From Anolis carolinensis (Eukaryota), in assembly GCF_035594765.1 (NCBI RefSeq), contig NW_026943825.1, forward strand, positions 124,001 through 188,000: a stretch of 64,000 bases of DNA, read 5' to 3'. Shown one piece after another: positions 257 through 55,103 of the stretch. The number at the start of each line of letters is the position of its first letter. The first letter of the stretch is position 1. Below the pieces are notes generated by a model. The model was not told where the DNA came from and did no database searches. It saw nothing but the letters and a program-made list of their open reading frames with translations. The translations under genes were made by a program, and so were the position numbers.

Positions 257-1885
257 CTTGATCTCAATGTTCCCGACTTTGGCGGTGGAGCGGATGACGG
301 GGCGCCCCACCAGCGCCGGGAAGATGTGCTCGGGGAAGTTGGACCCCGCGTAGCCACACTTGACGAACTGCAAACGACAAACAAACACTCTTTGCAAAGC
401 TGGCATTTCTGTCTAGGCACCGTGCTCCTATTGATGCGGACCAGGGTCGCGTTGGCCTTTTGAGCTGCTGCATCACAGTGTTGGCTCATGTTCAGCTGGT
501 GGTCTACTCACTCTCTACACATAATACAAGTGAAAAGAGAGCGCTGGGAAGCCCACCGATGAGGCACCCAGAGCAAACAGGCCCAACATCACACATGTGT
601 AGGTCCTGACGGAGTTTCAGGGGGTTCGTTCCCCCGGCCCGGTGGGAGTTGTTGTTCACCCACAACCGCATGCCTTTTGCACAATAACACAACTGACGAG
701 AGGAAGAGAGGAAGGGGAAGCCCAAGCCCGGCTGTGACTCAGAGCGAGGCTGCAAAGCGGAAGCAGCGGCTGGAAGAGAATCGGCAAAGACTTGCAAAGG
801 AGAAGCGCAAAGGCCTCTCTGCTAGAGAGAGGCTGCCCTTGGGCACCCTGAACCTCCCAAAACTCCCAGTTAACCAGAACCCGGGCAACGGGAACTCTCA
901 AGCAACCAGCAAAAAGAAATGAAGAAAAAAATACTGGGAGTCTGCTGTGTGTATAATGTACTAGCTGTGCCCGGCCACACATTGCTGTGGCCAAGTATGA
1001 TGGTGGTATTGGTTAAAAATTGTTGTGGAATTTTTATTTGACATTATTTGTATTTTTTAATTAATTTTATTGTAAGTACTGTAATCTTTTTATTTATTAT
1101 ATTTTATTATTTTCTAGTATTATTTTGAGTTATTTTCTGTTATTATTGTACTTTATTGTATTAATTTGTTAGTGTTTTTAATTATTTTTAATGGTTTTTT
1201 ATTATTTTTATTGGGTTGCTAGGAGACCAAGTGGGCGGAGCTTAGCCTTCTAACTGGCAGCAATTGGATAAAAGCAATTCTTCCTCTCCCTCTAATTTGG
1301 ACTTTATTTTTCTTTCCTTTTTGTTGTATCAACCTAGAGGCGTGGATGATGGGTTGTGTTGTCAATTTTCCAGTTTGTGGGGTGTTTAGTTTTGTTGTTT
1401 TGGCAGTCGCCAGGATTCCATCACTCTTTTATATATATATATATATATATAGATTTAGCAACGGGAAGGAAGTGCGCTGTGCAAAGGCACCTTGTGCTGT
1501 TCCCCAAAAGCAAACAGGCCTGGACTTTGCCTTCGAACTGCAAGAGCTGCCCATCAGGGCTGGGTGGCCATCTGTCGGGAAGGCTTGGGCTGTGCCTTCC
1601 TGGGCAGCAGCACGGAGTCGGTCTGGATGACCTTTGGGGTCCCTCCCAACTCTAGGATTCCGTCATCGTCCTCTTTGATAATAATAATATTATTTTAATA
1701 ATATTCTATTATTAATATTATTATATTCTAACAATATTATAATTATAATAATGGGCTTGGATGCTGTCACTCTTAATTGCAGAAAGGGGTCGTTCCGAAT
1801 GGCCTTTGGGGTCCCCTCCAACCCTAAGATCCTATCATCACCAAATTTGATAATAAAAATGTTTTAAGAATATTATATTCTAATA

Positions 1886-1934
<49 letters not shown>

Positions 1935-2031
1935 GGCTTGAATGGTGTCATTCTGAATTGCAGAAAGGGGGTCGTTCTGGATGGCCTTTGGGGTCCCCTC
2001 CAACCCCAAGATCCAATCATCACCATCTTTG

Positions 2032-2085
<54 letters not shown>

Positions 2086-2459
2086 TTTTAATAAAATTCT
2101 ATTAATATTATATTCTAATAATATTGCAATTAAATACAGTAGAGTCTCACTTATCCAACACTCGCTTATCCAACGTTCTGGATTATCCAACGCATTTTTG
2201 TAGTCAATGCTTTCAATATATCGTGATATTTTGGTGCTAAATTCATAAATACAGTAATTACTATATAGCATTACTGTGTACTGAACTACTTTTTCTGACA
2301 AATTTGTTGTCTAACATGATGTTTTGGTGCTTCATTTGTAAAATCATAACTTAATTTGATGTTTAATAGGGTTATCCTTAATCCCTCCTTATTATCCAAC
2401 ATATTTGCTTATCCAACGTTCTGCCGGCCCGTTTATGTTGGATAAGTGAGACTCTACTG

Positions 2460-2527
<68 letters not shown>

Positions 2528-2957
2528 GGCTTGGATGCTGGGTGGGTTTCTGGGTGGCCCCTCCAACCCCTCCCCCTAAATAATCAAAACAATCAGGGAA
2601 GCAGTATTACGAAGCGGTATGGAAGCGCGTTACTTTTGCAGTGCAGACGCACTCTGCCTGCAAACAATCCCTCCCGGAACAGAGCAAACAACTTTGGAAA
2701 AGGGGGGGGGGGGGTGTTTGAGCAAGAAGGCCACTGATTGCAAATCCCACACGAAACTCTCAGTTAACCGGAAACTCTCAAGCAACCGGCAACGAGAGGT
2801 AATATTATAAACAAATTGGGGGAAAAGAATAAAAAAACGGGAAAAAGATGGAGATGGATATTCCGGTTGCTTGAGAGTTTTTCCTGTTAAGCGGGAGTCC
2901 CGGCCTCACCCCGGTGCCGTTGTCGCAGACCACCACGCGGCGCCCCTGGCTGTCCAT
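257..2957 (-). CDS. ACTR2: Actin-related protein 2 (ARP2), exons 1-2 only; gene continues beyond left edge
   Basis: Exon 1 2910-2957 ([16 protein letters not shown], donor GTGAGG). Exon 2 257-367 ([37 protein letters not shown], tttgcag/GTGAGC). Near-identical to the vertebrate ARP2 N-terminus; orthologue versus paralogue unresolved. Confidence 0.93.
425..508 (-). mobile_element. CR1 LINE ORF2 fragment
   Basis: Translates [16 protein letters not shown], matching the CR1 MSQQC..AA.KAN motif. Confidence 0.65.
961..1453 (-). mobile_element. Non-autonomous Helitron
   Basis: 5' TCTATATA.., 3' GCCAC..GTGGC hairpin plus CTAG, inserted in A|T with no TSD. Confidence 0.8.
2137..2459. mobile_element. 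Tc1/mariner (Tigger/pogo-like) MITE, 323 bp
   Basis: TIR CAGTAGAGTCTCACTTATCCAA, TA target duplication; further copies at 3777-4092, 7946-8268, 26629-27036, 35514-35836, 36770-37092, 46261-46570, 58457-58884. Confidence 0.85.
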
Positions 2958-3240
2958 CGCCGCCCGCTCCCGCCTCCGCCTCCGCCGCCTCCTCTTCCTC
3001 GGTCTCCGGCTGCACCTGGGACACAAGAGCGGGGCGGCGGCGCGCCCACGCCCGCCTGTGATGCAACATCCTGGGCTGGCGGAGCCAAAGAGACGCCCTT
3101 CGCCGCCGCCGCCTCCCCTCCCTCCCTCCCTCCCTCCCTCCCGGGACCGCCTCGATTGCTCGGGGGGAAACGCAGGGCTCCGGGACCTGCTCATGAACTC
3201 CAACATGACCCCCCCCCCCACCCCCCACCCCATCATGAAA
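2880..3240 (-). promoter_or_regulatory. CpG island / promoter and 5'UTR of ACTR2-like gene
   Basis: CpG-dense GC-rich segment surrounding the ATG exon. Confidence 0.6.
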
Positions 3241-3386
3241 AATAGTAACTTATAGTTTTGCTAAGGACAAGGACATCAGGCTGGATAATAAGGGTCAAGT
3301 CTTGGTCAATTTGCAAAAGCAACAACATTTAATCAAGGCTGTTTGTCCTATATTTCATTTAATCAAGGCTGTATGTCCTATATTTC

Positions 3387-4806
3387 AGACCAAGTGGGCG
3401 GAGCTTAGCCTTCTAACTGGCAGCAACTGGATAAAAACAATTATTCCTCTCCCTCTAATTAGGACTTTAGGGTGTTAGCTGGCCCTGATTGTTTCCTTTG
3501 TGGAATTTCCAATTTCACTGCTTTATTTACTTTCTTTCTTTATTTACTGTCCTGGTTTTAGAGATTATATTGTTCTGCATTATTCTATCCCAGAAATTAT
3601 TTCATATCAAAGTAGAATCTCACTTATCCAACATTTTCTTATACAATGTTCTGGATTATCCAACGCAGTCTGCCTTTTCATAATCAATGTTTTTGTAATC
3701 GGTGTTTTAAATTCACTGTGATATTTTAGTGGTAAATTTGTAAATACAGTACAGTATATATATATATATATATATAGTAGAGTCTCACTAATCCAACATA
3801 AACGGGCCGGCAGAATGTTGGATAAGCAAATATGTTGGATAATAAGGAGGGATTAAGGAAAAGCCTATTAAACATCAAATTAGTTTATGATTTTACAAAT
3901 TAAGCACCAAAACATCATTTATACAACAAATTTGACAGAAAAAGTAGTTCAATACTCAGTAATGCTATGTAGTAATTACTGTATTTATGAATTTAACACC
4001 AAAATATCACGATATATTGAAAACATTGACTACAAAAATGCGTTGGATAATCCAGAACATTGGATAAGTGTTGGATAAGTGAGACTCTACTGTAATTACT
4101 ACGTAACATTACTGCGCGTGGAACTACCTTTTCTGTCAAATTTGTTGTATAATATGATGTTTTGGTGCTTAATTTGTATAACGATTACCTAATTTGATGT
4201 TTAATCGGCTTTTCCTGAATCCCTTATTATCCAACATATTCACTTATCCTGCCGGCCTGTTTACGTTGGATAAGTGAGACTCTACTGTATATTGATAATC
4301 TTAAATTATCTGCTCAGAACTGGATTATCTGAGGCCCCTTCTTCACAGCTGTATAAAATGCACACTGAAGTGGATTATATGGCAGTGTGGAGTCAAGATA
4401 ATCCAGTGCAAAGCAGATAATATAAGATTATAAATGGGTTCTATAGCTGTGTGGAAGGACCTTGAGTCTACACTGCCATATAATCCAGTGCAAATTAGAT
4501 AATCTGTGGAAGAGGCCTAAGTGAGGCCTAAATCTCCCTGTCCCCTAACTGAACCCTGACTGTCCCTTGGCTGAGTTGGTCGCTAGGAGACGAAGTGGGC
4601 AGAGATTAGCCCTCTAAACTGGCAGCAATTGGATAAAAAAAATTATTGCTCTCCCTCTAATTAGGACTTTATTTTTCTTTTCTTTTTGTTGTATCAACCC
4701 TGAGGCATGGGTGATGGGTTGTGTTGTCAAATTTCGAGGTTGGGGGGCCTGTACTTTTGTTGTTTTGTGAGTCGCCGTGATGCCATCACTCTTTTATATA
4801 TATAGA
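3387..4806 (-). mobile_element. Helitron, 3'-truncated, carrying nested MITEs
   Basis: 5' TC terminus at 4806; internal sequence matches 35230-36544. Confidence 0.7.
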
Positions 4807-5127
4807 TTGCAACTGTTGAAGAAAGTGTACCTCTAAGTGAGAAATAACATTGAAACCACTAAGCTCTGTGCCTGAATAAACCTGTTATTGTTCTTTCAAC
4901 ATCCAAGCCTCTGTCGCATATATTCTAAACTAAGTTACGCTAATATCTAAAGTGAAGAAGAAGGAAAAAAAAGTGAAAGGTCTCCTCCCTGAGTCTTTGG
5001 TGGTTGCGGAATATAAATACTGTAAATAAATAAATAATTCCAGTTAGATCTGTAGTGATCAGTTGAAGTAAGAACATCCGTTGGAGGAAAAAGGTTTAAA
5101 CTGCTCAAGGAAAGGAGAAAGTATTTT

Positions 5128-5536
5128 GAAAGTGGATTCATCATATGTTATATTATTGCAACTGTTGAAGAAAGCGTACCTCTAAGTGAGAAATAACATT
5201 GAAACCACTAAGGAAAGTGGATTCATCATATGTTATATTATTGCAACTGTTGAAGAAAGCGTACCTCTAAGTGAGAAATAACATTGAAACCACTAAGGAA
5301 AGTGGATTCATCATATGTTATATTATTGCAACTGTTGAAGAAAGCGTACCTCTAAGTGAGAAATAACATTGAAACCACTAAGGAAAGTGGATTCATCATA
5401 TGTTATATTATTGCAACTGTTGAAGAAAGCGTACCTCTAAGTGAGAAATAACATTGAAACCACTAAGGAAAGTGGATTCATCATATGTTATATTATTGCA
5501 ACTGTTGAAGAAAGCGTACCTCTAAGTGAGAAATAA
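5128..5536. repeat. 85-bp tandem repeat (~4.8 copies)
   Basis: GAAAGTGG at 5128, 5213, 5298, 5383, 5468. Confidence 0.9.
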
Positions 5537-5878: not shown

Positions 5879-7635
5879 TCAGGCCCCGGATTCCTCCTCG
5901 GGGTGTTTCTGCAGAGCCTCGTCGTCCTGGGGCTTCTGGCTCACAAACACCCTGAGCAGGACGTGGTGGGCGTCGGCGGTGGCCCCGTCCACGAAGGTCT
6001 TGAGCATGTTGTAGGCGGCGGCGAAAGAGCGGCCCTGCGAGGCCACGGGCAGCAGCGGCTTGGGCAGTTTCGGGGCCTTGCTGGCCGCCTCCGCCAGCCT
6101 CTCCACCACGTCCTCGCGGGAGACCTCGGCGGCCAGCGGGCCCTTGACCACGGCCCTGAGCTGGCCGAACGGGAGCCCGGCCTGGGCGGCGGCCTTGCGC
6201 AAGGCGGACTCCTCCAGGCCGAAGTGGACGCAGTATCCGCGCAGCGTCTGGAGGAGCAGCCCCACGTCGGTGGCGATGGACAGCTCGGGGAGGGGCTCCG
6301 GGTCCTGGCCGCAGGCCACCACGGCCACCAGCCACAGCTGCTGCCCCACCACGTCCCGCTTCTTCTCCAGGAGGCGGTGGGAGAGGTTGGGGGCCGCCAG
6401 GAGGAAGGAGTGGCTCCGCGGGAGGCCCAGGTCCCGCCACAGCGTCTCCCCGAGCAGCGGGAGGTCGTACCTGCCGAACGCGAGGCTGGAGACCAGGAAG
6501 ACCTTCGGGAAGGAAAGACACCGGGGTCAGACTCACCGGCTCCCTTCCTGGTGGAGACCACGACCTTCCCCAAGCCTTCTCTCGTCACCCGTCCGTCTAG
6601 GATCCTGTTGCTCACCGTTTCCTGTATGTACCATATATATATATACATTGGATAAGGGGCCGGGCTGTGGCGCAGATGGCTAGTAACCAGCTGCTATAAA
6701 TCACTACTGACCGAGAGGTCATGAGTTCGAAGCCCGGGTCGGGTTAAGCCTACGACCATTAAAAAAATAATAATAATAGCCCCGGCTTGCTGTTGACCTA
6801 GCAGCCCCGAAAGACAGTTGCATCTGTCAAGTAGGGAAAATTTAGGTACGCTTTATGCGGGAGGCTAATTTAACTAATCTACAACACCATAAAACTGCTC
6901 ACGAGGAAAGGAATGAGGAAGAACAGCCACCAATGGACGGTGAAGCAACAGCTCCCCCTGTGGCCGGAATCGTGAAGCTGGAAAGATGTTAAAAATGCCT
7001 CTGTGTCTGTCTAAAACTGAATGTTGTTTGTCTATTGGCATTGAATGTTTGCCATATATGTGTTCATTGTAATCCGCCCTGAGTCCCCTTCGGGGTGAGA
7101 AAGGAGGGCAGAATATAAATACTGTAAATAATAATAAATAAATACATAAATAAGACTCTACTGTATATATATACATATATAGACTAGCTGTGCCCGGCCA
7201 CACGTTGCTGTGGCGAAGTCTGGTGTTTTGGGAAATAAAGTATTGAGGAATCGGTGGTAGTTAAGGTCAAGGGTAAAGGTTTTACCTTACATTATAAATG
7301 GGTTATATAGCTGTGTGGAAGGGCCTTGAGACTACACTGCCATATAATCCAGTTAAAATCAGATAATCTGTATTTTATAGGCAGTGTGGAAGAGGCTTAA
7401 GTGAGGCCTAACTCTGCCTGGGCTGAGTGGGTTGCTAGGAGACCAAGTGGGCGGAGCTTAGCCTTCTAACTGGCAGCAATTGGCTAAAAACAATTATTCC
7501 TCTCCCCCTAATTAGGACTTTATTTTTCTTTTCTTTTTGTTGTATGAACCTAGAGGCATGGGTGAGGGGTTGTGCTGCCAAGTTTAGTGTTTCTGGGATG
7601 TGTCGTTTTGTCGTTTTGTCCTAGGCCGAAATTAC

Positions 7636-7688
<53 letters not shown>

Positions 7689-9419
7689 AGTGATGGCATC
7701 ATGGCGACCCACAAAACAACTAAACTACAGGCCCCCCAACCTCGAAATTTGACCACACATCATCCACGGCTATAGGTTGATGCAACAAAAAGCAAAGAAA
7801 AATAAAGTCCTAATTAGAGGGAGAGAAATAATTGTTTTTATCCAATTGCTGCCAGTTAGAAGGCTAAGCTCCGCCCACTTGGTCTCCTAGCAACCCACTC
7901 AGCCCAGTGTTAATAAAAGAATAAAAAATAAAATAAATACAAATACAGTAGAGTCTCACTTATCCAACGTAAATGGGCCGGCAGAACGTTGGATAAGCAA
8001 ATATGTTGGATAATAAGGAGAGATTAAGGAAAAGCCTATAAAACATTACATTAGGTTATGATTTTACAAATTAAGCACCAAAACATCATGTTATACAACA
8101 AATTTGACAGAAAAAGTAGTTCAATACGCAGTCATGCTATGTAGTAATTACAGTATTTACGAATTTAGCACCAAAATATCATGATGTATTGAAAACATTG
8201 ACTACAAAAATGGCTTGGATAATCCAGAACGTTGGATAAGTGAGTGTTGGATAAGTGAGACTCTACTGTAATACAATAAAAAATAATTAAAAACACTAAA
8301 AAAATTAATACAATAAAATACTATAACAAAATAACTAAAAATAATACAACAAAATAATAAAATATAATAAATAAAAAAGATAAGTTACAATAAAATTAAT
8401 TAAAAAAAATACAAATAACGTCAAATAAAAATTGCACAACAACTTTTAACCAATACCACCACCACTTTGCCACAGCAACGCGTGGCCGGGCACAGCTAGT
8501 ATATATATATATATATATTTGTGTAACTGGAAAACACTTCTAAAGCTCTGCTGTTTTTATGCACTGGCAAAAACCTCTGTTTTCCGAACAGATCAGAGAT
8601 AGCAGGTCATTCAGTCTAACAACCGAAACCTTGCATAATGATATTGGTTGTAGACCACAAGAGGATATTCTACCCTAAAGGCCTTTTGGCTCTTCTTGGA
8701 AAAAGTTATGATTTCCCAGCACGTTCTGCGTGGGGGGGGGCTGGACCGGGCGGCCCACGGGGTCTCCCCTGTGGCTCTGAGACCTTGGGGGACTTGACCC
8801 CGGCGGCCGCGAGGTCCTGCAGGCAGGCTTCCCGGATCTCCTTCAGGGCGGCCGCCTCGCTGAACCCGGCCGGACCCTCCCTCCGCCGCCGCCGGGCCTC
8901 CACGTCCTGGTCCACGCGGGAGCGGACGAAGTAGACGTCGGCCTGGGCCTTCTGGAGGAGTCGGGCCAGCCGGCCGTGGAGGGCCGAGAAGCGCCCGGAC
9001 GAGAGGACCAAGAACAAGTCGTAGCGAGAGAACTCGACCTGCTGCAGGTAGTCCCGGGGCTGGAAACCGGGGCCGCCGATGCTCGGAAGGTCCCACAGCC
9101 TCACGTCCGCGTATTTCGGGTGCGTGTACGGACGGGGCTCCGTGGTGGTAGCCGTGGTGGTGGTGGCGGCGGACCCCCCGGTCGGGGCGGCATCATCGTC
9201 GTCGGCACTCACGTCCCGGAAAGCGTTGATGAAGGTGGACTTGCCGACGGCGGGCTCGCCGGTGATGGCCACGTCCAGGCGGAGGTTCTCCAAGGCCGAA
9301 TGCGCCTCCCGGAGCCGGTCAGAGAGGTCGGAGAAGCTCCCTTTCTCGAAGGCACGTTGGAGGTCCCGGATCTGCATCTCCGTCAGAGAGACCTTGGCCT
9401 CCGTCCCCTTCGCGGACAT
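5879..9419 (-). CDS. Immunity-related GTPase (IRG/p47 family, IRGC / interferon-inducible GTPase 5-like), 419 aa, 2 coding exons
   Basis: Exon 8784-9419: LDVAITGEPAVGKSTFINA (G1), PYTHP, LWDLPSIG (G3), YFVRSRVD (G4). Exon 5879-6502: VFLVSS..RYDLPLL, AAPNLS..LEKKR, ending in TGA. Phase-0 GT..AG intron 6503-8783; acceptor ttccag just upstream of a gccgccATG Kozak context. Confidence 0.88.
6656..7150 (+). mobile_element. tRNA-derived SINE with L2-type tail
   Basis: A box TGGCGCAGATGG, B box GAGTTCGAAGCC, 3' CCGCCCTGAGTCCCC..(TAAA)n tail. Confidence 0.75.
7184..8499. mobile_element. Two Helitrons head-to-head sharing a (TA)n tract, in the IRG intron
   Basis: CTAG termini with hairpins at 7184 (-) and 8499 (+); MITE 7946-8268 nested in the second. 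Confidence 0.78.
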
Positions 9420-9570
9420 GGCGGCAGCGCGCGGCGGTCAAGACGGTAATCGGTCAGCCTGGAAGAGGAAGACCGGCAGAGACTCACCGCCCAGTTGACC
9501 CGGGAGACGGTGCCACCACCACGTTTGGACTGCATCCAAACTAAGAATTGGGCTGTTGTGTGTGGCCACG

Positions 9571-10494: not shown

Positions 10495-10523
10495 GGAACC
10501 CACCCCCCCCTCCGGATACTCAC

Positions 10524-10700: not shown

Positions 10701-10814
10701 CAGGGACCCCATTTCCCCTAGAACTTCCTTGACCAGAACGACCAGAACCAGGTGGCTGTGATTGCCCAATCGTCCTTGCAGTTGATTGAACTAGAATGAC
10801 TGATTACGCTTGCC

Positions 10815-11770: not shown

Positions 11771-11801
<31 letters not shown>

Positions 11802-39613: not shown

Positions 39614-39695
<82 letters not shown>

Positions 39696-42514
39696 GTGTT
39701 CGACTTGTGATTTTGTGATACGAAATCCAGCATAACTATCTTGTTTGCTGTGTCATACAATAAAATAATAATAATAATAATAATAATATGTGCTCACAAA
39801 ATTTATTAATATTGTTCTCTTATTAAGAGAATAAGAGAACTGGGCCTGAATATATTGCACAAGATTTCTCTAGCCTAAAATGATACATTTTAATATATTG
39901 GGTTTATGGTTCCCGTCTCCTTGATCAGGTCATGTAAGTGTTATTGATTTCTATAATTGTATTTTTACTTTGCTTAATAATGTGTTACTATGTTGTTATG
40001 TAATATTTGTGTTGTTTTTATGATTGGAAGCCGCCCTGAGTCCCATCCGGGAGATAGGGCGGTATATAAATAAAGTTTTATTATTATTATATTATTATTA
40101 TACTGTAAGCTAAGTCCGGAGAAGTGTGTCACAAATAAAATATTATTGTCCTTGCAGAACCACATCTATGCGGCCCGGAAGGCCTTTGACAGCTTCTTCC
40201 TGCGCTACCCGTACTGCTATGGCTATTGGAAGAAGTACGCCGACATGGAGCGGCGCTTCGACTTCATCAAGGAGACAGAGGAGGTAGAGGAGACCCTCCA
40301 GTCCCTCCCGACAGATGGCCAGCCGGACTGATCCTTTCTTGCCTATTATAATCCCCTCTCTTCTCTTCTTGGCAGGTCTTCCAGCGCGGCCTGCAGTCCA
40401 TCCCGCTGAGCATGGACCTCTGGATCCATTACATCTCCTTCCTCCAGTCCTCCTTGGACATGAACCATCCTGATTCGGCCCAGAAGATTTGTGGGTAAAT
40501 CATAATAATAATAGAATTTCTTACCTGAGGCGGATTGCAGCCCAATTAAAACACACAAACATTGCAAAAATCCTAGAAATACACACATTGAATGTATTTC
40601 TGTAAAAGATACTTATTAAAATGTATTACTATTGTTGTCATGGTTGTTAAGCAAAGTCTGGGTGGCCTCTTTGATGCATATGCTCATCTCAGCCTAGACT
40701 TAATTTCTCTCTATATATAATCTCTAGTATTATTATTATTAAGCAGAGGTTGGGTGTGTCTATGTCTATAATCTCTATTATTATTATTAAGCAGAGGCTG
40801 TGTGGCCTCCAAAGCATATAGTTACCTCAACCCAGACTTACACACACAACCTCTCTCTCTCTTTCTATATATATATATATATATACAGTAGAGTCTCGCT
40901 TATCCAACGTAAACGGGCCGGCAGAACGTTGGACAAGCTAATATGTTGGATAATAAGGAGAGATTAAGGAAAAGCCTATTAAACATCAAATTAGGTTATG
41001 ATTTTACAAATTAAGCACGCAAACATCATGTTATACAACAAATTTGACAGAAAAAGTAGTTCAATGCGCAGTAATGCTATGTAGTAATTACTGTATTTAC
41101 GAATTTAGCATCAAAATATCACGATATATTGAAAACATTGACTACAAAAATGGCTTGGATAATCCAGAAGCTTGGATAAGCGAGTGTTGGATAAGTGAGA
41201 CTCTACTGTGTATATATATATATATGTGTGCGTGTGTGTATATATATATATAATTTCCATTATTATTATTAAGAAGAGCCTTGGTGTCTCTTTGTTTATA
41301 TAATCCTAATAATGATGATGATGATGATGATGGAGATTATATATAGAGAGAGAGTAAATAAGTCTGTGCTGAAACGACTGTACACTTTAAAGAGGCCTCC
41401 CAGCCTCTGAATAATAATAATAATAATACTTTATTTATACCCCGCCACCATCACAATAATAATAATAATTTTTATTATTCAGAGGCTGGGAGGCCTCTTT
41501 GAAGCATACAGTCATCTCAGCCCAGACTTACTTCCTCTTTCTATTATATCCATCATGGCCATCTGTCGGGAGGGCTTGGGTGGTGCCTTCCTGGCTCAAT
41601 ACTGGCCTTGATCCTGCGACTTTTCCATTGTCAACGGCCATCTCTCTCTCTCTGTCCCTCCTGGCAGGACCTTTGAATCGGCCATTGCCGCGGCTGGGGT
41701 GGACTTCCGCTCAGACAAGCTGTGGGAGATGTACGTGGAGTGGCAGCGGGAGCAGGGCGACCTCAAGGCTGTCACCGGTGTCTACGACCGTGTCCTCAGC
41801 ACTCCCACCCAGCTCTACAGCCACCACTGGGAGAAGTACGCTGGGCAAACTGGGAGCAGTGGGGCCACTGCATAAGGGCAGCTACCCCTCTTGGCCTTCT
41901 CTCTTTGGGAACTGATGATAATATTGTTGTACTATATTATTATTTGTATTATTGTTATTATTAATATTATTATGGCTTCTCCAAATCCCCATGGATGCCA
42001 TGGGTTAGCTAAGAATCTATTGTGTTATTATTATAACTCCTTGGTTGCATTAGTTGTCTGGGTCTTTTTGGTTGTCTGAGTCTTTGTTGTTGTTGTTGTT
42101 GTTGTTCTGGCCTCTCCCAATCCCTATGGTTGCCATAGCTTAGCTGAGAGTTTGTATTATTATTGTTACTATTATAACCCATTGGTGCCATGAGTTACCT
42201 GAGAGTCTATTGTATTATTATCTCATTGGTGCCATGAGTTGTCTTGAGTCTATATTATTATTATTGTTATTGTTCTTATTATTCTGGCTTCCCTCAATCC
42301 CCATGGCTGCCTTGGGTTAGCTGAGAGTTTATTGTATTATTATTATTATTATGGCTTCTCAATCCCCATGGGTACCTTGGGTTAGCTGAGAGTTTTATTG
42401 TATTATTATTATAACTCATTGGTGCCATGAGTTATTTTAGTCTATTGTATTATTTTATTCTTATTATTCAGGCTTCTCCCAATCTGCTTGGGTGCCATAG
42501 GTTAACTGAGAGTC

Positions 42515-42557
<43 letters not shown>

Positions 42558-45500
42558 TCTGGCTTCTCAATCCCCATGGGTACCTTGGGTTAGCAGAGAG
42601 TTTATTGTATTATTATTATTATTATTATTATTATGGCTTCTCCAAATCCCCATAGGTGCCTTGGGTTAACTGAGAGTCTCTTCTATTAATATTATTATTA
42701 TTATTCCCACCCAGGTTCAAGGAGCACCTGAGCAGCCACCACCCGAGGGACATCCTCTCCTCAGAGGAGCTGCTCTGGATCCAGTCGAAGATGGCCGCCG
42801 ATGCCGGGCGGAGCAAAGGCCTGGAGGGGGGGCCCGAGGAGGAGGAGGAGGAGGGGGAAGAGGAGGCCCCGCCCCCAGGGGAGGAGCTCCCACCCCCCAA
42901 GAGGGAGGCCCCCCCGCCCATGGAGGGTTCCGGACAAGCGGGACACGTGATGGTGAGTCCTGGTCCCGTATATCCCTCTTGGCTGCTTCCGCTTTTGGTC
43001 CACAGCTGTTATTAGATTATTATATTATATGCTAGTATGATATATATTCACACACATAGATTCATACAAGCTGCCCCCGAGTTAAAAACATCCACTTAAA
43101 AAGGACTCCTATTTAAGAACGGGGCTGAGACAACAGGAAGTGAGAGGCACATTGTATATAATTATAGCGTTTTATAGTGTTTTCAGTGTTTTATTGTACA
43201 ATGTTTTATGCTGATTTTATATTTGAAACCGCCCTGAGTCCCTTTTAGGAGAGAGGGCGGTATACAAATAAACTTTTACTTACTTACTTACATGAGGCCA
43301 CAAGAATGTGAATGAATACTATTGTCATTTTAAACTGTTTATTTTATGATGTTTTATACTTTCTTGTTGATGTATTTGGATTGTTTATTATATATTTTAT
43401 TTATATATTACAATATTTATATCCCACCCTTCTCACTCAACAGGGGACTCAGGGCGGCTTACAAAAAACACATTATTATACAGTGCACTATAAAGTTTAA
43501 AAATTTATTTTTTTAACTAAAGCGGGATATAAATAAAGATTTGTTGTTGTTGTTACTAGTGTTATCTATATATATATAAAAGAGTGATGGCATCACGGCG
43601 ACCCACAAAACAACCAAACTACAGGCCCCCCAACCTTGAAATTTGACAACACAATCCATCATCCATGCCTCTAGGTTGATACAACAAAAAGAAAAGAAAA
43701 ATAGTCCTAATTAGAGAGAGAGGAATAATTGCTTTTATCCAATTGCTGCCAGTTAGAAGGCTAAGCTCCTCCAACTTGGTCTCCTAGCAACCCAATAAAA
43801 AACAATAAAAAACACTAAAAATAATAAAAAACACTAAAAAATTAATACCATAAAATACCATAATAACAAAAAATAACTAAAAATTATACAAGAAAATAAT
43901 AAAATATAATAAATAAAAATATAACTTACAATAAAATTAATTAAAAAATACAAATAACGTCAAATAAAAATTACACAACAATTTTTAACCAATACCACCA
44001 CCACTTTGCCACAGCAATGCGTGGCCGGGCACAGCTAGTAATATTATATGATTATATTTCTTAATACTCTGTATTAATAGTGTGCTGTATGGTCTGTTTG
44101 TTCCTGGGTGCCAGGGTCCGATGGATGAAGACAAAATCCTGGAGATGTCCCTCTCAATACGGCAGCAGATCTTCAGCCAGAACGAGGCCGAAGTCAGCAA
44201 GCGCTGGAACTTCGAGGAAGGGGTTCGTATGGCTTATTCTAATGTTAAAGCAGGAGCTTCCTCCATGTCGTAAAAGGCTCAAATCCTGCTTGGAGGTGGC
44301 ACTCATGTCGCCTCCGAGGTTGGCTCTGCAAAGCAACAAAGAGAGAGCAACGGAAGCGAGCCCTCAACGCTCCCGGGTTGTTTCCTCCAGATCAAGCGGC
44401 CCTACTTCCACGTCAAGCCCTTGGAGCGAGCGCAGCTGCGCAACTGGCGCGAGTACCTGGACTTTGAAATAGCCAACGGGTCCCACGAGCGCACCATCGT
44501 CCTCTTTGAGCGCTGCGTCATCGCCTGTGCCCTCTACGAGGAGTTCTGGATCAAGGTAGGAAAGAGGAGATTTCCTGGTTCGAAAGTGTTATTTCCTGTT
44601 ACATTTGTGGCCTTTCCTTTGGAAGTACTCCAGAAACTTCATTTTTGTCTTATAGTAGTATAATAATAAATTATCATAGTAAGTTATAATATACTAGCTG
44701 TGCCCGGCCACGCGTTGCTGTGGCGTTGTCTGGTGGTGTGGTGAGAAATTGTTGAGGTAGTGGTGGTATTGAATGTCTGTTATATGGTTGTCTTTATGTT
44801 TAGTATGCACACTGAAGTGGATTATATGGCAGTGTGGAGTCAAGATAATCCAGTTCAAAGCAGATAATATAAGATTATAAATGGGTTATATAGCTGTGTG
44901 GAAGGGCCTTGAGTCTACACTGCCATATAATCCAGTTAAAATCTGATAATCTGTGGAAGAGGCCTAACTGTGCCTGTCCCCTGGACTGAGTAGGTTCCTA
45001 GGAGACCAAGTGGGCGGAGCTTAGCCTTCAAACTGGCAGCAATTGGATAAAAACTATTATTCCTCTCCCTGTAATTAGGACTTTATTTTTCTTTTCTTTT
45101 CGTTATATCAACCTAGAGCCGTGAATGATGGGTTGTGTTGTCAGATTTCGAGGTTGGGGGGCCTGTAGTTTTGTCGTTTTGTCCTCTGCCCTGATGCCAT
45201 CACTCTTTTATATATATAGATGATATTTTAACAATATATCCTAATGCAGTGTATTGCAATAATAAATACAGAAATAATATATTTTGTCCTATGTTGTTTG
45301 GGCCTCTGCCCCATGTAAGCCGCCTCGAGTCCCCGCGGGGAGATGGTGGCGGGGTTTAAATAAAGTTTTTATTATTATTATTATTATTATTACATACAGT
45401 AGAGTCTCACTTATCCAGCATAACAACAACAATAATAATAGTACAACTGCATTGAAGGACCTATAAAATGGCTAGAGTTTTTTTAGAGAGATAAAGTGCG

Positions 45501-45909
45501 TATAAATAATAATTATAATAATAGTCACTGTGTGCACGGGAGGAGCTAGAGATTCCTAGAGAAGTATTTTCTCGGCATTCATGGGGGTTATGGGCCCAGG
45601 ACTCTATGAAAGAAACATACTGTTGATTGATCACAGAGGTGATGACAATGAGGATGACAGTAATGACAATAATGCTTAAGAATGTCTCTCCTCCCCTGAA
45701 CGCAGTACACGAGGTACCTGGAGAGTCACAGCGTGGCCGGGGCCCGCAACGTCTTCCAGCGCGCCTGCTGCTACCACCTTCCCCGGAAGCCCACCATCCA
45801 CCTCCTCTGGGCCGCCTTCGAGGAGAAGCACGGTGAGCGAGATTGGATAATTCTATTATTATTCATAATATTTGAAGGCCCTTGGGGTCCCAACTCTAGG
45901 AGTCTATGC

Positions 45910-45950
<41 letters not shown>

Positions 45951-46626
45951 GATACTATTTGATACATAACAAGATTAATCTAATGATTCTATTTTTATCT
46001 TTTTATTGCTGCTACAATCCCCCCACCTATGAATTTGAATGATTTGTATTGGTGGTTGTTTGATACTATTACTGTTGTATTAATTTTTGTTTTTATTACC
46101 ATATTGTGTTTTAATCTGTGCATATTGTGTTAACGTATGTGTGTTGTTCTTTTGTAACATTGTAAGCCACCCCGAGTCCCCGCGGGGAGATGGTAGCGGG
46201 GTATAAATAAAGTTTTTTAAAAATTATTATTATTATTATTATTTATTAGTAGTAGTAGTACAGTAGAGTCTCATTTATCCAAGCTAAACGGGCCAGCAGA
46301 AGCCATTTTTGTAGTCAATGTTTTCAATATATCGTGCTATTTTGGTGCTAAATTAGTAAATACAGTAATTACTACATAGCATTACTGCGTATTAAACTAC
46401 TTTTTCTGTCAAATTTGTTGTATAACATGATGTTTCAGTGCTTAATTTGTAAAATCATAACCTAATTTGATGTTTAATAGGCTTTTCCTTAATCCCTCCT
46501 CATTATCCAAGATATTCGCTTATCCAAGCTTCTGCCTGCCTGTTTAGCTTGGATAAGTGAGACTCTACTGTATTATGATTATTATTAAGAGAGACTGGGT
46601 GGCCATTGGTTGGAAGTCTATGATTC

Positions 46627-46683
<57 letters not shown>

Positions 46684-46722
46684 ATAGAGACTGGGTGGCC
46701 ATTGGTTGGAAGTCTATGATTC

Positions 46723-46758
<36 letters not shown>

Positions 46759-47112
46759 ATAGAGACTGGGTGGCCATTGGTTGGAAGTCTATGATTCTAT
46801 TATTGTTATTATTACTATATTATTAAATAGAGGCTGGGTTGTGATTTGCTGGAAGTCTATGATTCTATTATTGTTATTATTACTATATTATTAAATAGAG
46901 GCTGGGTTGTGATTTGTTGGAAGTCTATGATTCTATTATTGTTATTACTATATTAATAGAGGCTGGGTTGTGATTTGTTGGAAGTCTATGATTTTTCTAT
47001 TATTATTGTTGTTATGATTATTGTTGTTGTTGTTATTATTAAGTAAAGGCTAGGTGGCCATCTGTTGGGAGGTAGTCTATGATTCTATTGTTGTTGGAAG
47101 TCTATTATTCTT

Positions 47113-47147
<35 letters not shown>

Positions 47148-47904
47148 TTATTATGACACAGCAAACAAGATAGATATGCTGGATTTCATATCACAAGATC
47201 ACAAGTCGAACACTTCCCAAGTGTCTAGGACTGTGTGATGTATTTTCGGATGATGTGCGCAGATCCCAGTCGGGTGGCCTTTTGCAGTTGGCATTTTTTT
47301 ATTATCATCATCATCATCATTATTATTATTATTATTAAGTAAAGGCTAGCTGGCCATTTGTTGGGAGGTAGTCTATGATTCTATTGTTGTTGGAAGTCAA
47401 TTATTCTGTTGTTGTTGTTGTTGTTGTTGGAAGATAGTAGGTGCCCGTTGGCTGGGTGTGGCTGTCCCTGGGTGGCCCCTTCTGAGCCCTGTTCCCCGTG
47501 TGCTTCCCTCCCTCGGTCTGTGCAGGGGAGGTGGAGGAGGCGCGGCGCATCCTGCGCACCTTTGAGGAGTGCGTCCCGGGCCTGGCGATGGTGCGCCTGC
47601 GGCGGGTGAGCCTGGAGCGGCGTCAGGGCAACATGGAAGGGGCGGAGGCGCTGCTGGCGGCCGCCATCCGGGAGAACGAGGGCCTGCCCGTCTCCTCCTT
47701 CTACTCCGTCAAGCTGGCCCGACAGGTCCTCAAGGTCCAGAAGAACATCACCAAGGCCCGCAAAATCCTCCTTGAAGCCCTCGAGAAGGACCCCGTCAGT
47801 ATTATTTCTGTTGGGATTTTTATATTACAATGTTCTGTATTATTAGTACTACGGTACTATATTATTAGATTATTTTTGTATTGCTATATTATATTTGTAT
47901 TACA

Positions 47905-47955
<51 letters not shown>

Positions 47956-48655
47956 GCTGTAGCCAGAAAAAAAAATTCAGGAGAGGTTTTGTAAATTTTG
48001 GGGGGGGGGGTTGAACCCCTAGCACACACCTCTCCCCGCTACAAACCTGTCAATATCTGCTTGAGATAGTGCCTGGAGGGACTCTTAATGTTTTGCGTCT
48101 CATAGACTTAGCATGGGGATTTGGTTAACCAGTTAAAATTCATGAGTAAACCAGGTTTTTTTTTATAACCTGAAAAATTTCGGGGGGGGGGGGGGGGGGT
48201 TGAACCCCTAAAACCACCNNNNNNNNNNNNNNNNNNNNNNNNNNNNNNNNNNNNNNNNNNNNNNNNNNNNNNNNNNNNNNNNNNNNNNNNNNNNNNNNNN
48301 NNNNNNNNNNNNNNNNNNNNNNNNNNNNNNNNNNNNNNNNNNNNNNNNTGTTAAAGCGCTGAGCTGCTGAACTTGCAGACCGAAAGGTCCCAGGTTCAAA
48401 CCCCGGGAGCAGCGTGAGCGGCCGCTGTTAGCTCCAGCTTCTGCCAACCTAGCAGTTCGAAAACATGCCAATGTGAGTAGATCAATAGGTACTGCTCCAG
48501 CGGGAAGGTTATGGCGCTCCATGCAGTCATGCCAGCCGCATGACCTGGAGATGTCTCTGGACAACGCCGGCTCTTTGGTTTAGAAATGGAGATGAGCACC
48601 AGCCCCCCAGAGTCGGTCACGACTGGACTTAACGTCAGGGGAAAACCTTTACCTT

Positions 48656-48711
<56 letters not shown>

Positions 48712-49624
48712 AAAATAGGCCATCCCCAAGTTACATACATCCAACTTACAAACGACTCCTAGTTCAGAATGGTGCTGAGGCAACAGAAAAGGAGAGGAAT
48801 CTTTATTATTTGCTAGCTTGGGTACCTGGTGATGCCCAGGTTATTTGAAAAGGGCCTTGTTTGTGTTTGGATGTTAGGTGATATCAGTTTGGTCATATGT
48901 TACACTATTTCTTAGGGGAAAAAACCCAACCTTTGCTTTTGTATTTTATGAATGCTCCCATTAGAAAACGCATAAGGATGTGGCTGAACTATACATCCCA
49001 GTCCCTACAACTCCTATAAACCCAAACCTCTTTCTCTAGCATGTTCAGTTGCTGTGTGCCATAGGAAACAATAGGAAAGGGTTAAGGGAGAGGCAGGGGG
49101 CGGGGTCATGCAAATTCCACACCAATGGAGAGAAAGGAACCCTGGGATGTGCTCGCTATAAAGCTGTTTGTGGAGGCTGTCTGTGTAAATGGACACTGCC
49201 ACCACATACACACATACAGATTTCCCCTTTTATTATGATTATTAATTATAGTATATTATACCTATCTTTCTATCTGTACCTATCTGTCTGTGTATTTTTC
49301 TATGTCATCCAAAGCTGAAATATGTCTAATTGCGGCTGGAGCTATACATTTATTTATTTATTTATTTATTTACTACATTTATATGCCGCCCTTCTCGCCC
49401 CAAAGGGGACTCAGAGCGGCTTACAAATTACATTCACATACAATACATTATATTATTGGCATATTATTATTATTTGGCATATTAATATTATTAGTAATAT
49501 TACATTTAATATATAATTAATATTATTAAATTGTCTTATTATCAGTATTATATCGTAATACATTATAATATTATCAATATTATATGTATATACAATATAT
49601 TATATTATAAATTAAGCTGTATAT

Positions 49625-49679
<55 letters not shown>

Positions 49680-50859
49680 AGGCATTAAAGGTCCCCTACT
49701 TATATGGTTTCCATGTCTCAGGGTGCTATGTGATTCAGTATTCCCTGTCTTAATAATAATAATACTTTATTTTTTATTTTTTATTATTTATTTTGTGTTT
49801 TATAATGACTGTGATTTTATTTTATGCTTTTTAATTATTTGTATGTTTTTTGTATTTGATACTTTGTATGCTGGTTTTATATCTGTGAGCCACCCCGAGT
49901 CCCTCTAGGGAGATGGTGGCGGGGTATAAAAATAATAATAATTATTATTATTATTATTTTTCTATGCCGCCACCATCTCCCCGAAGGGACTCGTGGCGGC
50001 TAAATATCCCTGCTCCAACTTACAAATTCAACTTAAGCGCAACTTGTTTGCCGCCCGGGACGGCCTGTGTTTGTTTCCCATACGTCTTAATGTATCTCGC
50101 AGTCCAGTAGTAGACCCTTGAGTTGTAACTGCAACCCATTAGGACAACGCCAAGCTGTACGCCAACCTGCTGGAGATGGAGTTCAGTGCGGACGTGCGCC
50201 AGAACGAGGGCCACACCATGAGCAGCTTTGACCGGGCCCTGACCAGTGGCCTCCCCCTCGAGACCAAGATCATCTTCTCCCAGCGACGGGTCGAGTTCTT
50301 GGAGGACTTTGGCTCCAGCATCCACAGGTACGGAGCCACGAGAAGGGGCCGCAAGAGCCCCCTGGACCCCAGTGGCGCCTCACCTCCGGCCTGTTTCTGT
50401 CCTAAACACCATCCCCACCCTCTCTTCCAGCTTGTTGATGTCGTACGACGAGCATCAGAAGCTCCTGAACCAACAGATGCTGAGGAAGAGGCTCCTGGAA
50501 AACGGGTAAAGGGACTTATTGTATTATTATTATTATATTATGACACAGCAAACAAGATAGAGATGCTGGATTTCGTATCACAAAATCACAAGTCGAACAC
50601 TTCCCAAGTGTCTAGGACTCTGTGATGTATTATTATTATTATTATGATTATTATTATTATGACACAGCAAACAAGATAGATATGCTGCGTTTCGTATCAC
50701 AAAGTCACAAGTCGAACACTTCCCAAGTGTCTAGGACTCTGTGATGTATTATTATTATTATTATTTTATTGTATGACACAGCAAACAAGATAGATATGCT
50801 GGATTTCGTATCACAAAATCACAAGTCGAACACTTCCCAAGTGTCTAGGACTCTGTGAT

Positions 50860-50894
<35 letters not shown>

Positions 50895-50988
50895 TTATTG
50901 TATGACACAGCAAACAAGATAGATATGCTGCGTTTCGTATCACAAAGTCACAAGTCGAACACTTCCCAAGTGTCTAGGACTCTGTGAT

Positions 50989-51020
<32 letters not shown>

Positions 51021-52987: not shown

Positions 52988-53290
52988 TCGGAATTTGAGA
53001 AATTCTCAGCTTCGATGTCTGTTGGAAAATGAAGGTATTTATCAATATTATTATTATTGAGTCTCCTTTGTGAAGAGAAAAAGTGGGCTATACATTAACA
53101 TTATTATTATTATTAGTATGAATAGCTTGGTTACCTGGAAATGTTTCAGAAAGATTTGTTCATCTGCTGGTTTTTAATCATTTATTTTCAAGTTGTCTCT
53201 TCTTATTAAAGCAAACAGAACTAGGAAACCTAATATGATCAATAATGATTCTCTTACAAGTTTCTCCCCCTTTTTTATTATTCTTCTGAA

Positions 53291-53619
53291 TCAGAAGCCT
53301 TTGTCCACCAGCCAGGCCTTTAATTCCTTGTCAAAGTAGCCCTTGATGCGGAGGCTGGAGGCCACTTCGTTGACTTGCGTCAGGGGCGTCTCTCCAGACA
53401 GATCGGTCAGGAAGGCCTTCACTTCCTTCTCAAGGGCCTGCAGAATATATTGATATATTATTATTGTTCTATTATTTCATTCTGATATGATCCTATTATT
53501 CTATTCCATTCTCATATTATTCTATTACATCCTTATATTACTCATTAATCTATTATATTATTTTCCATTCCATTCTCATTGTTTTCTATTCCATTCTTCT
53601 GTTATTTTATTACACTCTC

Positions 53620-53651
<32 letters not shown>

Positions 53652-54162
53652 TTTTTATACCCCGCCTCTATCTCCCCAACGGGGACTCAGGGTGGCTTAC
53701 ATGGGGCCAAGTCCGAATAAAAACAATAGCAATATAATAATAATAACAACAACTACAACTTTATTTTTATCTCCCCAAAGGGGAGACAGGGCGGCTTACA
53801 TGGGGCCAAGTCCAAATAAAAACAATAACAGTATAATAATAATAATAATAACAACAACAACAACTTTATTTTTATCTCCCCAAAGGGGAGACAGGGCGGC
53901 TTACATGGGGCCAAGTCCAAATAAAAACAATAGCAATATAATAATAATAACAATAATAATAATAATAATAACAACTTTATTTTTATATCCCGCCTCTATC
54001 TCCCCAAAGGGGACTCAGGGTGGCTTACACGGGGCCAAGCCCGAATAAAAACAACAGCAATATAATAATAATAACAACTTTATTTTTATGCCCTGCCTCT
54101 ATCTCCCCAACGGGGATTCAGGGCGGCTTACATGGGGCCAAGCCTGAATAAAAACAATAGCA

Positions 54163-54216
<54 letters not shown>

Positions 54217-54957
54217 CTTTATTTTTATACCCCGCCTCTATCTCCCCAAAGGGGACTCAGGGCGACTTACATGGGGCCAAGCCCGAATAAAAGCAATAGC
54301 AATATAAAACACAACCATAGACAAAAAACATGCACAATTATAAAAATTTAAACATTAGCCAATAAAAACAAATGACAAGAACTAATAAAAACATGGATTA
54401 AAACGGAGAGGTTGTAAAAGCAGACTGGGTAAGGTGCACCATATAAATATTGTAATTATAAATATAATTCTGTTCCATCCTCATATTCTCCTATTTTCTA
54501 TTTCATTCTCACATCATTCCATTCTCATAATATTATATTATGATTCCATTCTCATATTATTCTATTCCAATCTCATTTTAAAATCTTTGGGGACGGCGGA
54601 GGTGTATAAACTTCATATTGTCCATGATGACGAATCTCAAGCCTTAAGGCCAAGTCTTTCCCATTATTATTATTATTATTTTATTGTATGACACAGCAAA
54701 CAAGATATTATAATAATAATAATAATGTGGGGAAGGACTTGGCCTTAAGGCCTGAGATTTGTCATCATGGACAATTATTATTATTATTATTATTATTTTA
54801 TTGTATGGCACAGCAAACAAGATAAAATAATAATAATAATAATAATGATGATGATGATGATGTGGGAAAGGACTTGGCCTTAAGGCCTGAGATTTGTCAT
54901 CATGGACAATTATTATTATTATTATTATTTTATTGTATGGCACAGCAAACAAGATAA

Positions 54958-54998
<41 letters not shown>

Positions 54999-55055
54999 TG
55001 ATGATGATGTGGGGAAGGACTTGGCCTTAAGGCCTGAGATTTGTCATCATGGACA

Positions 55056-55103
<48 letters not shown>

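What the first reader, a model, noticed from the sequence alone, without database searches (positions are those of the whole stretch)
1555..55100. Recurrent architecture: short local sequences amplified between variable-length (TAA)n tracts
Seen: at least nine independent arrays share one design, a constant 30-120 bp unit with a (TAA)n spacer of variable length, yet the units are unrelated. They are CR1 tails (1555-2580, 46585-47405), an exon junction (17060-17950), Dong 3' ends (24474-25590, 50535-51420), a MITE-end-like core (27345-30250, 41970-42680), L2 tails (53650-54310) and a unique ~50-mer (54617-55060). Established: Dong/R4 elements target TAA repeats with an RLE endonuclease, and a copy with an open RLE frame lies at 56634. 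Inference: anything trapped between two TAA tracts becomes an amplifiable cassette, possibly because Dong endonuclease nicks trigger misaligned repair. This would be a retrotransposon-assisted minisatellite generator that can copy functional signals.
Basis: partly seen in the sequence, partly recalled or inferred. Interest (0 to 1): 0.75.

Follow-up and report, generated by a model that had tools for sequence, protein, structure and literature searches.

The report
TAA-spaced minisatellites seeded by lizard retrotransposons
In what is likely an anole lizard genome, short pieces of DNA (jumping-gene ends, and even splice sites of host genes) stand in tandem copies separated by stretchy TAA runs, likely because ordinary copying slips at these runs duplicate the neighbouring piece, while a TAA-seeking jumping gene likely supplies half of the pieces and carries some arrays around rather than cutting the DNA for the others.

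Summary
The arrays are real: 9 of the 10 pass my detector and 10 shuffles give none. They are common on small chromosomes (71 TAA-containing arrays in 1.53 Mb sampled), but SSR-free arrays are commoner (175), and the same design occurs with CCTT, AGAT and AT/AC spacers. About half the TAA arrays are Dong/R4 pieces. For other units TAA is about three times more often a spacer than other motifs (24/637 against 13/1389). Corrections: ten arrays have six sources; the 'MITE end' is a local low-copy sequence; most arrays have a tract on one outer side only; the frame at 56634 is a truncated copy without reverse transcriptase. A general Dong-nick engine is not supported (no strand polarity, 9:9; ages as broad as SSR-free arrays) but is not excluded. 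Unexplained and probably undescribed: a third of Dong loci carry tandem 3' ends with a fixed boundary (36/105, against 6/255 for L2), begun about when the copy inserted, and a 98-bp internal unit is arrayed at seven loci. Best reading: host misalignment plus spread by retrotransposition; a variant of known transposon-derived minisatellites. The scan earlier noted related TAA/Dong features elsewhere in this genome.

The parts
1555..2580 (+). Loose array of three to four CR1-type 3' end copies (family name recalled) with complex AT-rich spacers; a MITE-like piece interrupts at 2137-2459
16991..17015 (-). True 3' splice site and first 17 bases of an Ig-domain exon; likely founder of the 17-kb unit
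   Evidence: 20/25 match
17035..17971 (-). Intronic array of 12 diverged copies of the acceptor site and exon start, spaced by (TTA)n and (CTA)n
24478..25591 (+). Dong/R4 3'-end array: one partial copy and nine 82-87-bp units in three variant types repeated as blocks (ABC x3)
26003..26054 (+). Single, spacer-free copy of the local core, inside a MITE-like element
27237..27332 (-). Single Dong 3' unit with the same 5' boundary as the array units, between two tracts
27347..28876 (-). Array of 23 copies of a 32-35-bp piece of the local core, tracts at both outer ends, higher-order blocks
29300..30250 (+). Array of about 8 copies of a longer (78-97 bp) version of the local core, opposite orientation to 27.4k
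41970..42690 (-). Old, diverged array of the same local core, 12 kb away
46587..47000 (+). Array of six 40-50-bp internally shortened CR1-type ends between tracts
50539..51770 (-). Long 5'-truncated Dong copy (51330-51770) followed in element sense by seven short 3' units
53650..54455 (-). Long L2-type 3' end followed in element sense by five 81-89-bp units; one tract-unit junction is matched exactly by contigs of four studies
54619..55097 (.). Local 49-bp unit, first copy inverted, then three direct copies; periods hold a TTA tract, a Dong 3' tip and a TAA tract
56635..57297 (+). 5'-truncated Dong/R4 copy with an open 193-aa zinc-knuckle/endonuclease frame and no RT domain; cannot by itself supply the enzyme

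Best explanation
The arrays are compound minisatellites, constant units separated by (TAA)n tracts of varying length, that likely begin when host DNA copying or recombination misaligns a long TAA tract with a short TAA-like match roughly 40-130 bp away and likely grow by unequal exchange, mostly on small chromosomes, while the Dong element likely supplies tracts and half of the units and likely carries some ready-made arrays to new sites instead of cutting TAA tracts for other DNA. Steps. (1) Shown: Dong sits in TAA tracts and leaves a TAA tail; L2-type ends carry tails of the same motif. (2) Shown: unit boundaries recur at short matches to the tract (the nearest AATA upstream of the Dong tail; AAT in L2). 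Inferred: a slip from the tract to that match makes the first duplication, after which one copy lies between two tracts. (3) Shown: higher-order blocks and identical neighbouring units. Inferred: unequal exchange or conversion multiplies the units, and slippage changes each tract length on its own. (4) Shown: the same 98-bp internal Dong unit is arrayed with the same boundaries at seven loci, with the same variants recurring inside the arrays. Inferred: elements that already held the array were retrotransposed. How the first short 3' unit of a Dong copy is made (host slip soon after insertion, inheritance from a source element, or re-priming by the RT) is not settled.
For: Array density follows chromosome context for all arrays: 4.0 per 100 kb in large-chromosome interiors, 10.0 at their ends, 18.1 and 21.5 in small-chromosome interiors and ends, 29.8 in the window; 175 of 265 sampled arrays have no microsatellite. 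Long Dong copies with a downstream unit: 2 of 48 in large-chromosome interiors against 19 of 71 on small chromosomes (P 0.001). Same design with (CCTT)n (L103:1236, 11 copies), (AGAT)n (L138, 14 copies) and (AT)n(AC)n (L159, L030). Host units that include intron bases (window 17k; L171) and a local core copied to four places in both orientations fit DNA-level copying. Second Dong copies start at the AATA site in 19 of 36 chains against 9 of 69 single copies, and that site is the nearest 4-base match to the tract upstream of the tail. Block structure ABC x3 with tract lengths 9,16,8 / 9,12,7 / 8,13,8. First and second copies are closer than random loci (0.042 against 0.055, P 0.001). No strand polarity among 18 one-sided non-Dong arrays (9:9). 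Internal unit at L034, L072, L149, L154, L170, L115, L117. Initiation at short repeats and transposon-derived arrays with one long terminal unit are described (PMC3389668, PMC10702118).
Against: A plain host slip does not explain why 36 of 105 Dong 3' loci but only 6 of 255 L2 loci are tandem, nor why a long copy and its next unit share only 2 rare variants and differ at 29 (15 pairs; 1.93 per pair against 2.04 for random loci), which dates the first unit to about the time of insertion. The matched large/small-chromosome comparison alone is not significant (1 of 24 against 5 of 23, P 0.10), and the 22 large-chromosome copies are younger. Matches at junctions are only 1-4 bases. The TAA excess for non-Dong units (OR about 3) remains, and AAAT tracts show none (0 of 63). 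Carriers of the internal unit do not form a tighter clade (distance 0.081 among carriers, 0.057 among others; one shared variant 4/5 against 5/22). At least two of the 24 non-Dong arrays are copies of one mobile element and one is a misfiled R4 piece, so they are not all independent.
Confidence: 0.55

Rival explanations
1. Dong's reverse transcriptase writes its own arrays during insertion: it copies about 95 bases, re-primes on a UAA tail of the same or another RNA through the short match, repeats this, and finally runs further, leaving a long copy followed by short units. Host DNA processes only enlarge the array later. This covers the Dong half of the arrays only.
For: Strict polarity: the second copy is long in 1 of 36 chains against 61% of single copies (P 1e-13); the first is longer in 21 and shorter in 6. 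Units are as old as the insertion. Tenfold excess over L2 tails. Neighbouring units sometimes differ at family markers. Template jumping is described for the related R2 RT (passage and reference in PMC2718515).
Against: The rate appears to depend on the chromosome (2/48 against 19/71), which an RT-intrinsic step would not predict. It cannot make exon-boundary or local-core arrays. Inheritance from source elements that already had tandem ends explains the same polarity and age.
Confidence: 0.25
2. One reading: Dong endonuclease nicks TAA tracts throughout the genome and misaligned repair duplicates whatever lies between or beside tracts.
For: TAA excess of about threefold for non-Dong units; the family is abundant (47,506 first-look candidates) and 6 of 150 scored copies have a 1141-aa frame; Dong arrays cluster in age at 3-5%, as activity during a burst would give.
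Against: No strand polarity (9:9); non-Dong TAA arrays span the same ages as SSR-free arrays (P 0.17) and differ from Dong arrays (P 0.03); L2 TTA tails, which Dong does hit, are tandem in only 3 of 88; (AT)n tracts are spacers as often (3 of 36 against 23 of 409, small numbers); other motifs give the same design.
Confidence: 0.12
3. Dong arrays are stacks of independent insertions, because each insertion regenerates its TAA target.
For: Some chains clearly hold independent copies (L084, L172, L225, L232); single short copies also start at the AATA site (9 of 69).
Against: Second copies are almost never long (1 of 36) and order is asymmetric (21:6); neighbours are more alike than random loci and share rare variants in L152, L084 and the window.
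Confidence: 0.05
4. The arrays are assembly artefacts.
For: No laid record spans a whole array; the tool skipped the repeats.
Against: Units differ by several percent in patterned ways; contigs from 4 of 4 runs of four studies match 53737/53739-53803 (one from 53717) without a difference, across a tract-unit junction with a private deletion; the same design occurs at dozens of loci.
Confidence: 0.03

Closest known systems
SINE-derived satellites of squamates, including sSat1Aca of the green anole (PMC10702118; abstract, background, discussion and passages read)
   Same: Tandem copies of part of a retroelement, 70-290 bp, with one longer terminal unit, recurring boundaries and a subtelomeric preference, in squamate genomes.
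   Different: Here the units come from LINE 3' ends (R4/Dong, L2, CR1 types) and from host exons and local DNA, and each period includes a microsatellite of variable length. That paper set simple-repeat tails aside and does not treat LINE ends in the parts read.
Minisatellite birth at short repeats: Haber and Louis 1998; Taylor and Breden 2000 (known to me through PMC3389668 passages; the originals were not read)
   Same: A sequence next to short direct repeats is duplicated by slippage or unequal exchange; terminal units are often incomplete.
   Different: One partner is a long microsatellite and the other a 1-4-base match, shorter than the 5-10 bp of the model; the microsatellite becomes the spacer.
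Dong (R4 clade) elements of Bombyx, Anopheles, Biomphalaria and Darwinula (PMC3812793, PMC7998251 passages)
   Same: One ORF with RT and C-terminal zinc knuckle/restriction-like endonuclease; insertion into (TAA)n.
   Different: Tandem 3' ends at a third of loci and an arrayed 98-bp internal unit were not found described in my searches.
Microsatellite seeding by CR1 tails in snakes (PMC3157835 passages)
   Same: LINE tails are a main source of ATA-type microsatellites in squamates.
   Different: That work covers the tracts, not arrays of the DNA next to them.

Membership tests
R4/Dong non-LTR retrotransposon | Single ORF with RT domain | tested here: met
   1141-aa frames in 4 of 4 fetched full-length copies; RVT_1 E 2e-31; best solved relatives are R2 proteins
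R4/Dong non-LTR retrotransposon | C-terminal zinc knuckle and restriction-like endonuclease, no APE domain | tested here: met
   zf-RVT hit, below its cutoff, and no APE family in Pfam; weak alignment to the R2 C-terminus; CCHC and PD..D..K motif read by eye (motif recalled)
R4/Dong non-LTR retrotransposon | Insertion into (TAA)n | tested here: met
   TAA upstream in 131 and downstream in 141 of 189 hits (array units included); 4 of 4 full-length copies start after a TAA tract
R4/Dong non-LTR retrotransposon | RT groups with Bombyx Dong in a tree; divergent N-terminal Myb domain | not tested
   No reference Dong sequence was fetched; the name rests on domain layout and target
Squamate SINE-derived satellites (sSat) | Unit derived from a SINE | tested here: not met
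   Units are LINE ends, exon boundaries or local DNA; only L068:7873 looks SINE-derived (recalled)
Squamate SINE-derived satellites (sSat) | One longer terminal unit | tested here: met
   First copy longer in 21, equal in 9, shorter in 6 of 36 Dong chains; also L2 arrays
Squamate SINE-derived satellites (sSat) | Subtelomeric preference | tested here: inconclusive
   TAA arrays per 100 kb: 6.5 near small-contig ends, 3.9 inside them, 1.9 near large-contig ends, 0.5 inside; contig ends were not shown to be telomeres
Direct-repeat-initiated minisatellite (Haber-Louis) | Array flanked by 5-10-bp direct repeats | tested here: inconclusive
   15 of 75 arrays have tracts at both ends; elsewhere the match is 1-4 bases
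MITE terminus (27k/29k/42k core) | High-copy interspersed sequence | tested here: not met
   0 hits outside the window in the sample; 15 genome matches, 13 of them in the window
Dong-nick-driven amplifier | Absent or rarer in genomes without Dong | not testable with these tools
   No other squamate genome is held
Dong-nick-driven amplifier | Strand polarity of founders relative to the TAA strand (my inference from first-strand nicking) | tested here: not met
   9 against 9 among 18 one-sided non-Dong arrays; sides taken from a crude rule

The most novel reading that the evidence does not exclude
A microsatellite-targeting retrotransposon acts as a minisatellite factory: its RT re-primes again and again on TAA tails, telomerase-like, to write unit-(TAA)n arrays at insertion, spreads them as cargo, and its nicks let neighbouring host DNA, splice sites included, be amplified the same way on recombination-rich small chromosomes.
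Probability: 0.2. Interest if true: 0.75.

Novelty: new variant of a known kind. Interest (0 to 1): 0.42.

Why it matters
How minisatellites start is still largely open (PMC3389668 could assign about 6% of human transposon-derived arrays to the two standard models). This genome holds many dated examples with readable junctions: by extrapolation from 71 in 1.53 Mb, several thousand, mostly on small chromosomes. The Dong arrays give a sharp test of whether an RT can write tandem repeats during insertion. Arrays of copied splice sites (12 acceptors here, 12 donors at L171) would be raw material for mis-splicing or new exons. If the host-slip reading holds, the finding is a tidy extension of known transposon-derived satellites.

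Tried and rejected
Laying contigs on the 17-kb array told nothing: the tool skipped 17011-17920; no long-read or useful RNA run was offered, so use of the decoy acceptors is untested. The genome-wide pattern search for the internal-unit junction is not exhaustive (3 matches, and it missed L034), so it gave loci, not counts. My first divergence estimate for arrays returned false zeros and was discarded; the TRF-based figures replaced it and are inflated by collapsed tracts. The lax count (any tract inside an array) gave only a borderline TAA excess without Dong units (33 against 23 expected; Fisher P 0.09 against all other motifs); the strict count was defined afterwards. No age difference between small-chromosome copies with and without units (18 against 33, P 0.56) and no clear tail-length difference (P 0.10). 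Error-prone synthesis of downstream units was not supported: non-CpG loads were similar in single, first, second and later copies. A strand-polarity idea that fitted Dong against L2 failed on other units. A single source lineage for tandem ends is only hinted (one variant in 7/10 against 8/39, uncorrected). I first read the shorter 3' ends as internal priming; an 18-bp direct repeat there allows deletion or an older subfamily, so I make no claim. Taylor and Breden 2000 is not held. Eight literature searches showed no paper on TAA-spaced arrays or tandem Dong ends in anoles; the library lacks most subscription journals, and no supplements were read (those of PMC10702118 may bear on novelty).
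Full report
Setting. The window is G000:C16:124001-188000, 124 kb from the start of a 17.1-Mb contig in a 1.85-Gb genome with six large and many small contigs. The repeats suggest an anole lizard (inference; earlier notes of the scan say the same). (AAT)n is the dominant microsatellite, 143 tracts against 21 for the next motif.

Observation. Splitting the sequence at tracts shows constant units and variable spacers at nine sites. A detector that shortens tracts and then runs TRF found 19 arrays in the window, 9 with AAT tracts, 1 with other motifs and 9 with none, and 0 in 10 shuffles. 1555-2580 is loose and was missed by the detector. The ten arrays have six sources. The 27.4k, 29.3k and 42k units share one core that also occurs once, without spacers, at 26003; it has no hit outside the window in the sample and 13 of its 15 genome matches are in the window, so it is not a MITE end. 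The 17-kb unit matches the acceptor site and first 17 bases of the adjacent Ig-domain exon at 20 of 25 positions. The 54.6k array contains a Dong tip and starts with an inverted copy. Contigs from 4 of 4 runs of four studies match one tract-unit junction of the 53.6k array exactly; none spans an array; the 17-kb array was skipped.

The element. The frame at 56634 covers positions 2992-3654 of a 3660-bp element. Four fetched full-length copies have 1141-aa frames with an RT domain and a C-terminal zinc knuckle, start after a TAA tract and end in one. Six of 150 scored matches have such a frame. This fits R4/Dong as described in PMC7998251 and PMC3812793 (passages); no tree was built.

Genome sample. 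I fetched 156 stretches of 10 kb at fixed positions chosen without seeing their content; 3 were dropped as N (L047, L058, L151), leaving 1.53 Mb. They hold 265 arrays: 71 with an AAT tract (38 of them Dong or a related R4-type family), 19 with other motifs only, 175 with none. Density is 4.0, 10.0, 18.1 and 21.5 per 100 kb in large-contig interiors, large-contig ends, small-contig interiors and small-contig ends. The window is therefore a rich example of an array-prone compartment. For arrays with a tract in most periods, AAT tract loci are spacers in 44 of 675 cases against 13 of 1393 for other motifs; without Dong units 24 of 637 against 13 of 1389 (Mantel-Haenszel OR 3.1, P 0.002), 23 of 409 against 7 of 510 for tracts of 18 bp or more (P 0.02) and 19 of 327 against 3 of 257 for 24 or more (P 0.11). 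This definition was set after a laxer one gave a borderline result. L067:4634 and L103:8113 share the termini of one mobile element with L083 (lead from note e1-9884577), and L152:7427 is R4-like, so about 21-22 of the 24 are independent. Clear arrays with (CCTT)n, (AGAT)n and (AT)n(AC)n spacers exist.

Are units trapped? By an automatic rule 15 of 75 AAT arrays have a tract at both outer ends, 42 at one, 14 at neither, and 4 are cut (the rule is crude, and it scores the 17-kb array as two-sided although its founder exon has a tract on one side). One tract and a short match suffice; the trapped state follows the first duplication.

Dong arrays. 199 3' ends form 105 loci, 36 of them tandem, against 6 of 255 for L2-type ends and 3 of 88 for TTA-tailed L2 ends on small contigs. 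The second copy is long in 1 of 36 although 61% of single copies are long, so stacked independent insertions are not the main route. It starts at the nearest AATA upstream of the tail in 19 of 36, against 9 of 69 singles. Long copy and next unit are related (0.042 against 0.055) but share only 2 rare variants and differ at 29 in 15 pairs: the first unit is about as old as the insertion. Later growth is at DNA level (ABC x3 in the window; identical units in L152). Long copies carry a unit in 2 of 48 large-contig interior loci and 19 of 71 small-contig loci (matched subset 1 of 24 against 5 of 23, P 0.10). A 98-bp piece from inside the ORF, where the element has no tract, is arrayed with TAA spacers and the same boundaries at five sampled loci and two more from a pattern search, with the same two variants recurring inside arrays; spread from source elements that held the array is the simplest reading, although the carriers do not cluster.

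The nick hypothesis. For non-Dong arrays the founder lies 5' of the TAA strand in 9 and 3' in 9 cases. Their divergence is as broad as that of SSR-free arrays (median 5 against 6%, P 0.17) and broader than that of Dong arrays (median 4%, P 0.03). Neither result favours nicking; neither excludes it, and the threefold TAA excess could come from nicks or from the instability of long A/T tracts.

Comparison. PMC10702118 (abstract, background, discussion, passages) describes SINE-derived tandem arrays in 56 squamate genomes, with one long terminal unit and a subtelomeric bias, anole included. PMC3389668 (passages) gives the two standard initiation models. PMC3157835 (passages) describes ATA seeding by CR1 tails in snakes; PMC2718515 (passages) mentions template jumping by the R2 RT. 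Eight searches showed no account of TAA-spaced arrays or tandem Dong ends; the library is incomplete.

Verdict. A real, genome-wide architecture, best read as microsatellite-assisted tandem duplication in an array-prone compartment, fed and partly spread by a TAA-targeting element (0.55). RT re-priming for the Dong half stays open (0.25); a general nick-driven generator is the weakest live reading (0.12). New variant of a known kind; interest 0.42.

Noticed in passing
L171:2842-3910 (G000:C14:24.44 Mb): Twelve copies of an apparent exon end plus GT donor site, spaced by (TAT)n, directly after the native exon; a second splice-site array.
   Followed up: partly
L034:4591-5927, L072:6264-7088, L149:7975, L154:2742, L170:1, L115, L117: The same 98-bp internal Dong ORF piece arrayed with TAA spacers where the intact element has no tract; five cases in 1.53 Mb.
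   Followed up: partly
Dong 3' units, several loci: One T-to-G variant that recreates an 8-bp word lying 17 bp upstream occurs only in downstream units (6 of 35 loci, 0 of 96 single or first copies). A unit lineage or a templated change; unexplained.
   Followed up: partly
L103:1236-2873; L138:1-3682; L159:4739; L030:3800: Same constant-unit, variable-spacer design with CCTT, AGAT and AT/AC tracts.
   Followed up: yes
L011:6662-7353; L050:8554-9196: A second R4-type family forms TAA-spaced arrays, and in L011 alternates with Dong units in one array on a large chromosome.
   Followed up: no
window 5128-5536, 9605-10494, 10810-11561, 18180-18716, 21668-21938, 22295-22993, 32705-33060: Arrays without any microsatellite spacer, some perfect (85 bp x4.8, 135 bp x2).
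   Followed up: partly
window 15437-16359 and 19843-21076: AT-rich low-complexity arrays; the first resembles an array inside a MITE-like element at L169:6852.
   Followed up: no
window 39614-39760: (AAT)14 directly followed by (TAT)12, a long inverted tract pair, next to a 67-bp Dong end.
   Followed up: no
L118-L121, L184-L253: Many long Dong copies end tail to tail on an L2-type or CR1-type 3' end; young copies mostly keep an 18-bp terminal direct repeat that most short copies lack.
   Followed up: partly
window 5879-9434 (-), 15200-19200 (-), 37265-52760 (+): Host genes: an interferon-inducible GTPase (IIGP), an Ig-domain gene resembling junctional adhesion molecules (name recalled) and a PRP39-like gene; most arrays lie in or between their introns.
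   Followed up: partly
G000:C19:287518-288935 and C19:4939567-4940987: Dong-end arrays with the same layout twice on one contig, probably a segmental duplication.
   Followed up: no
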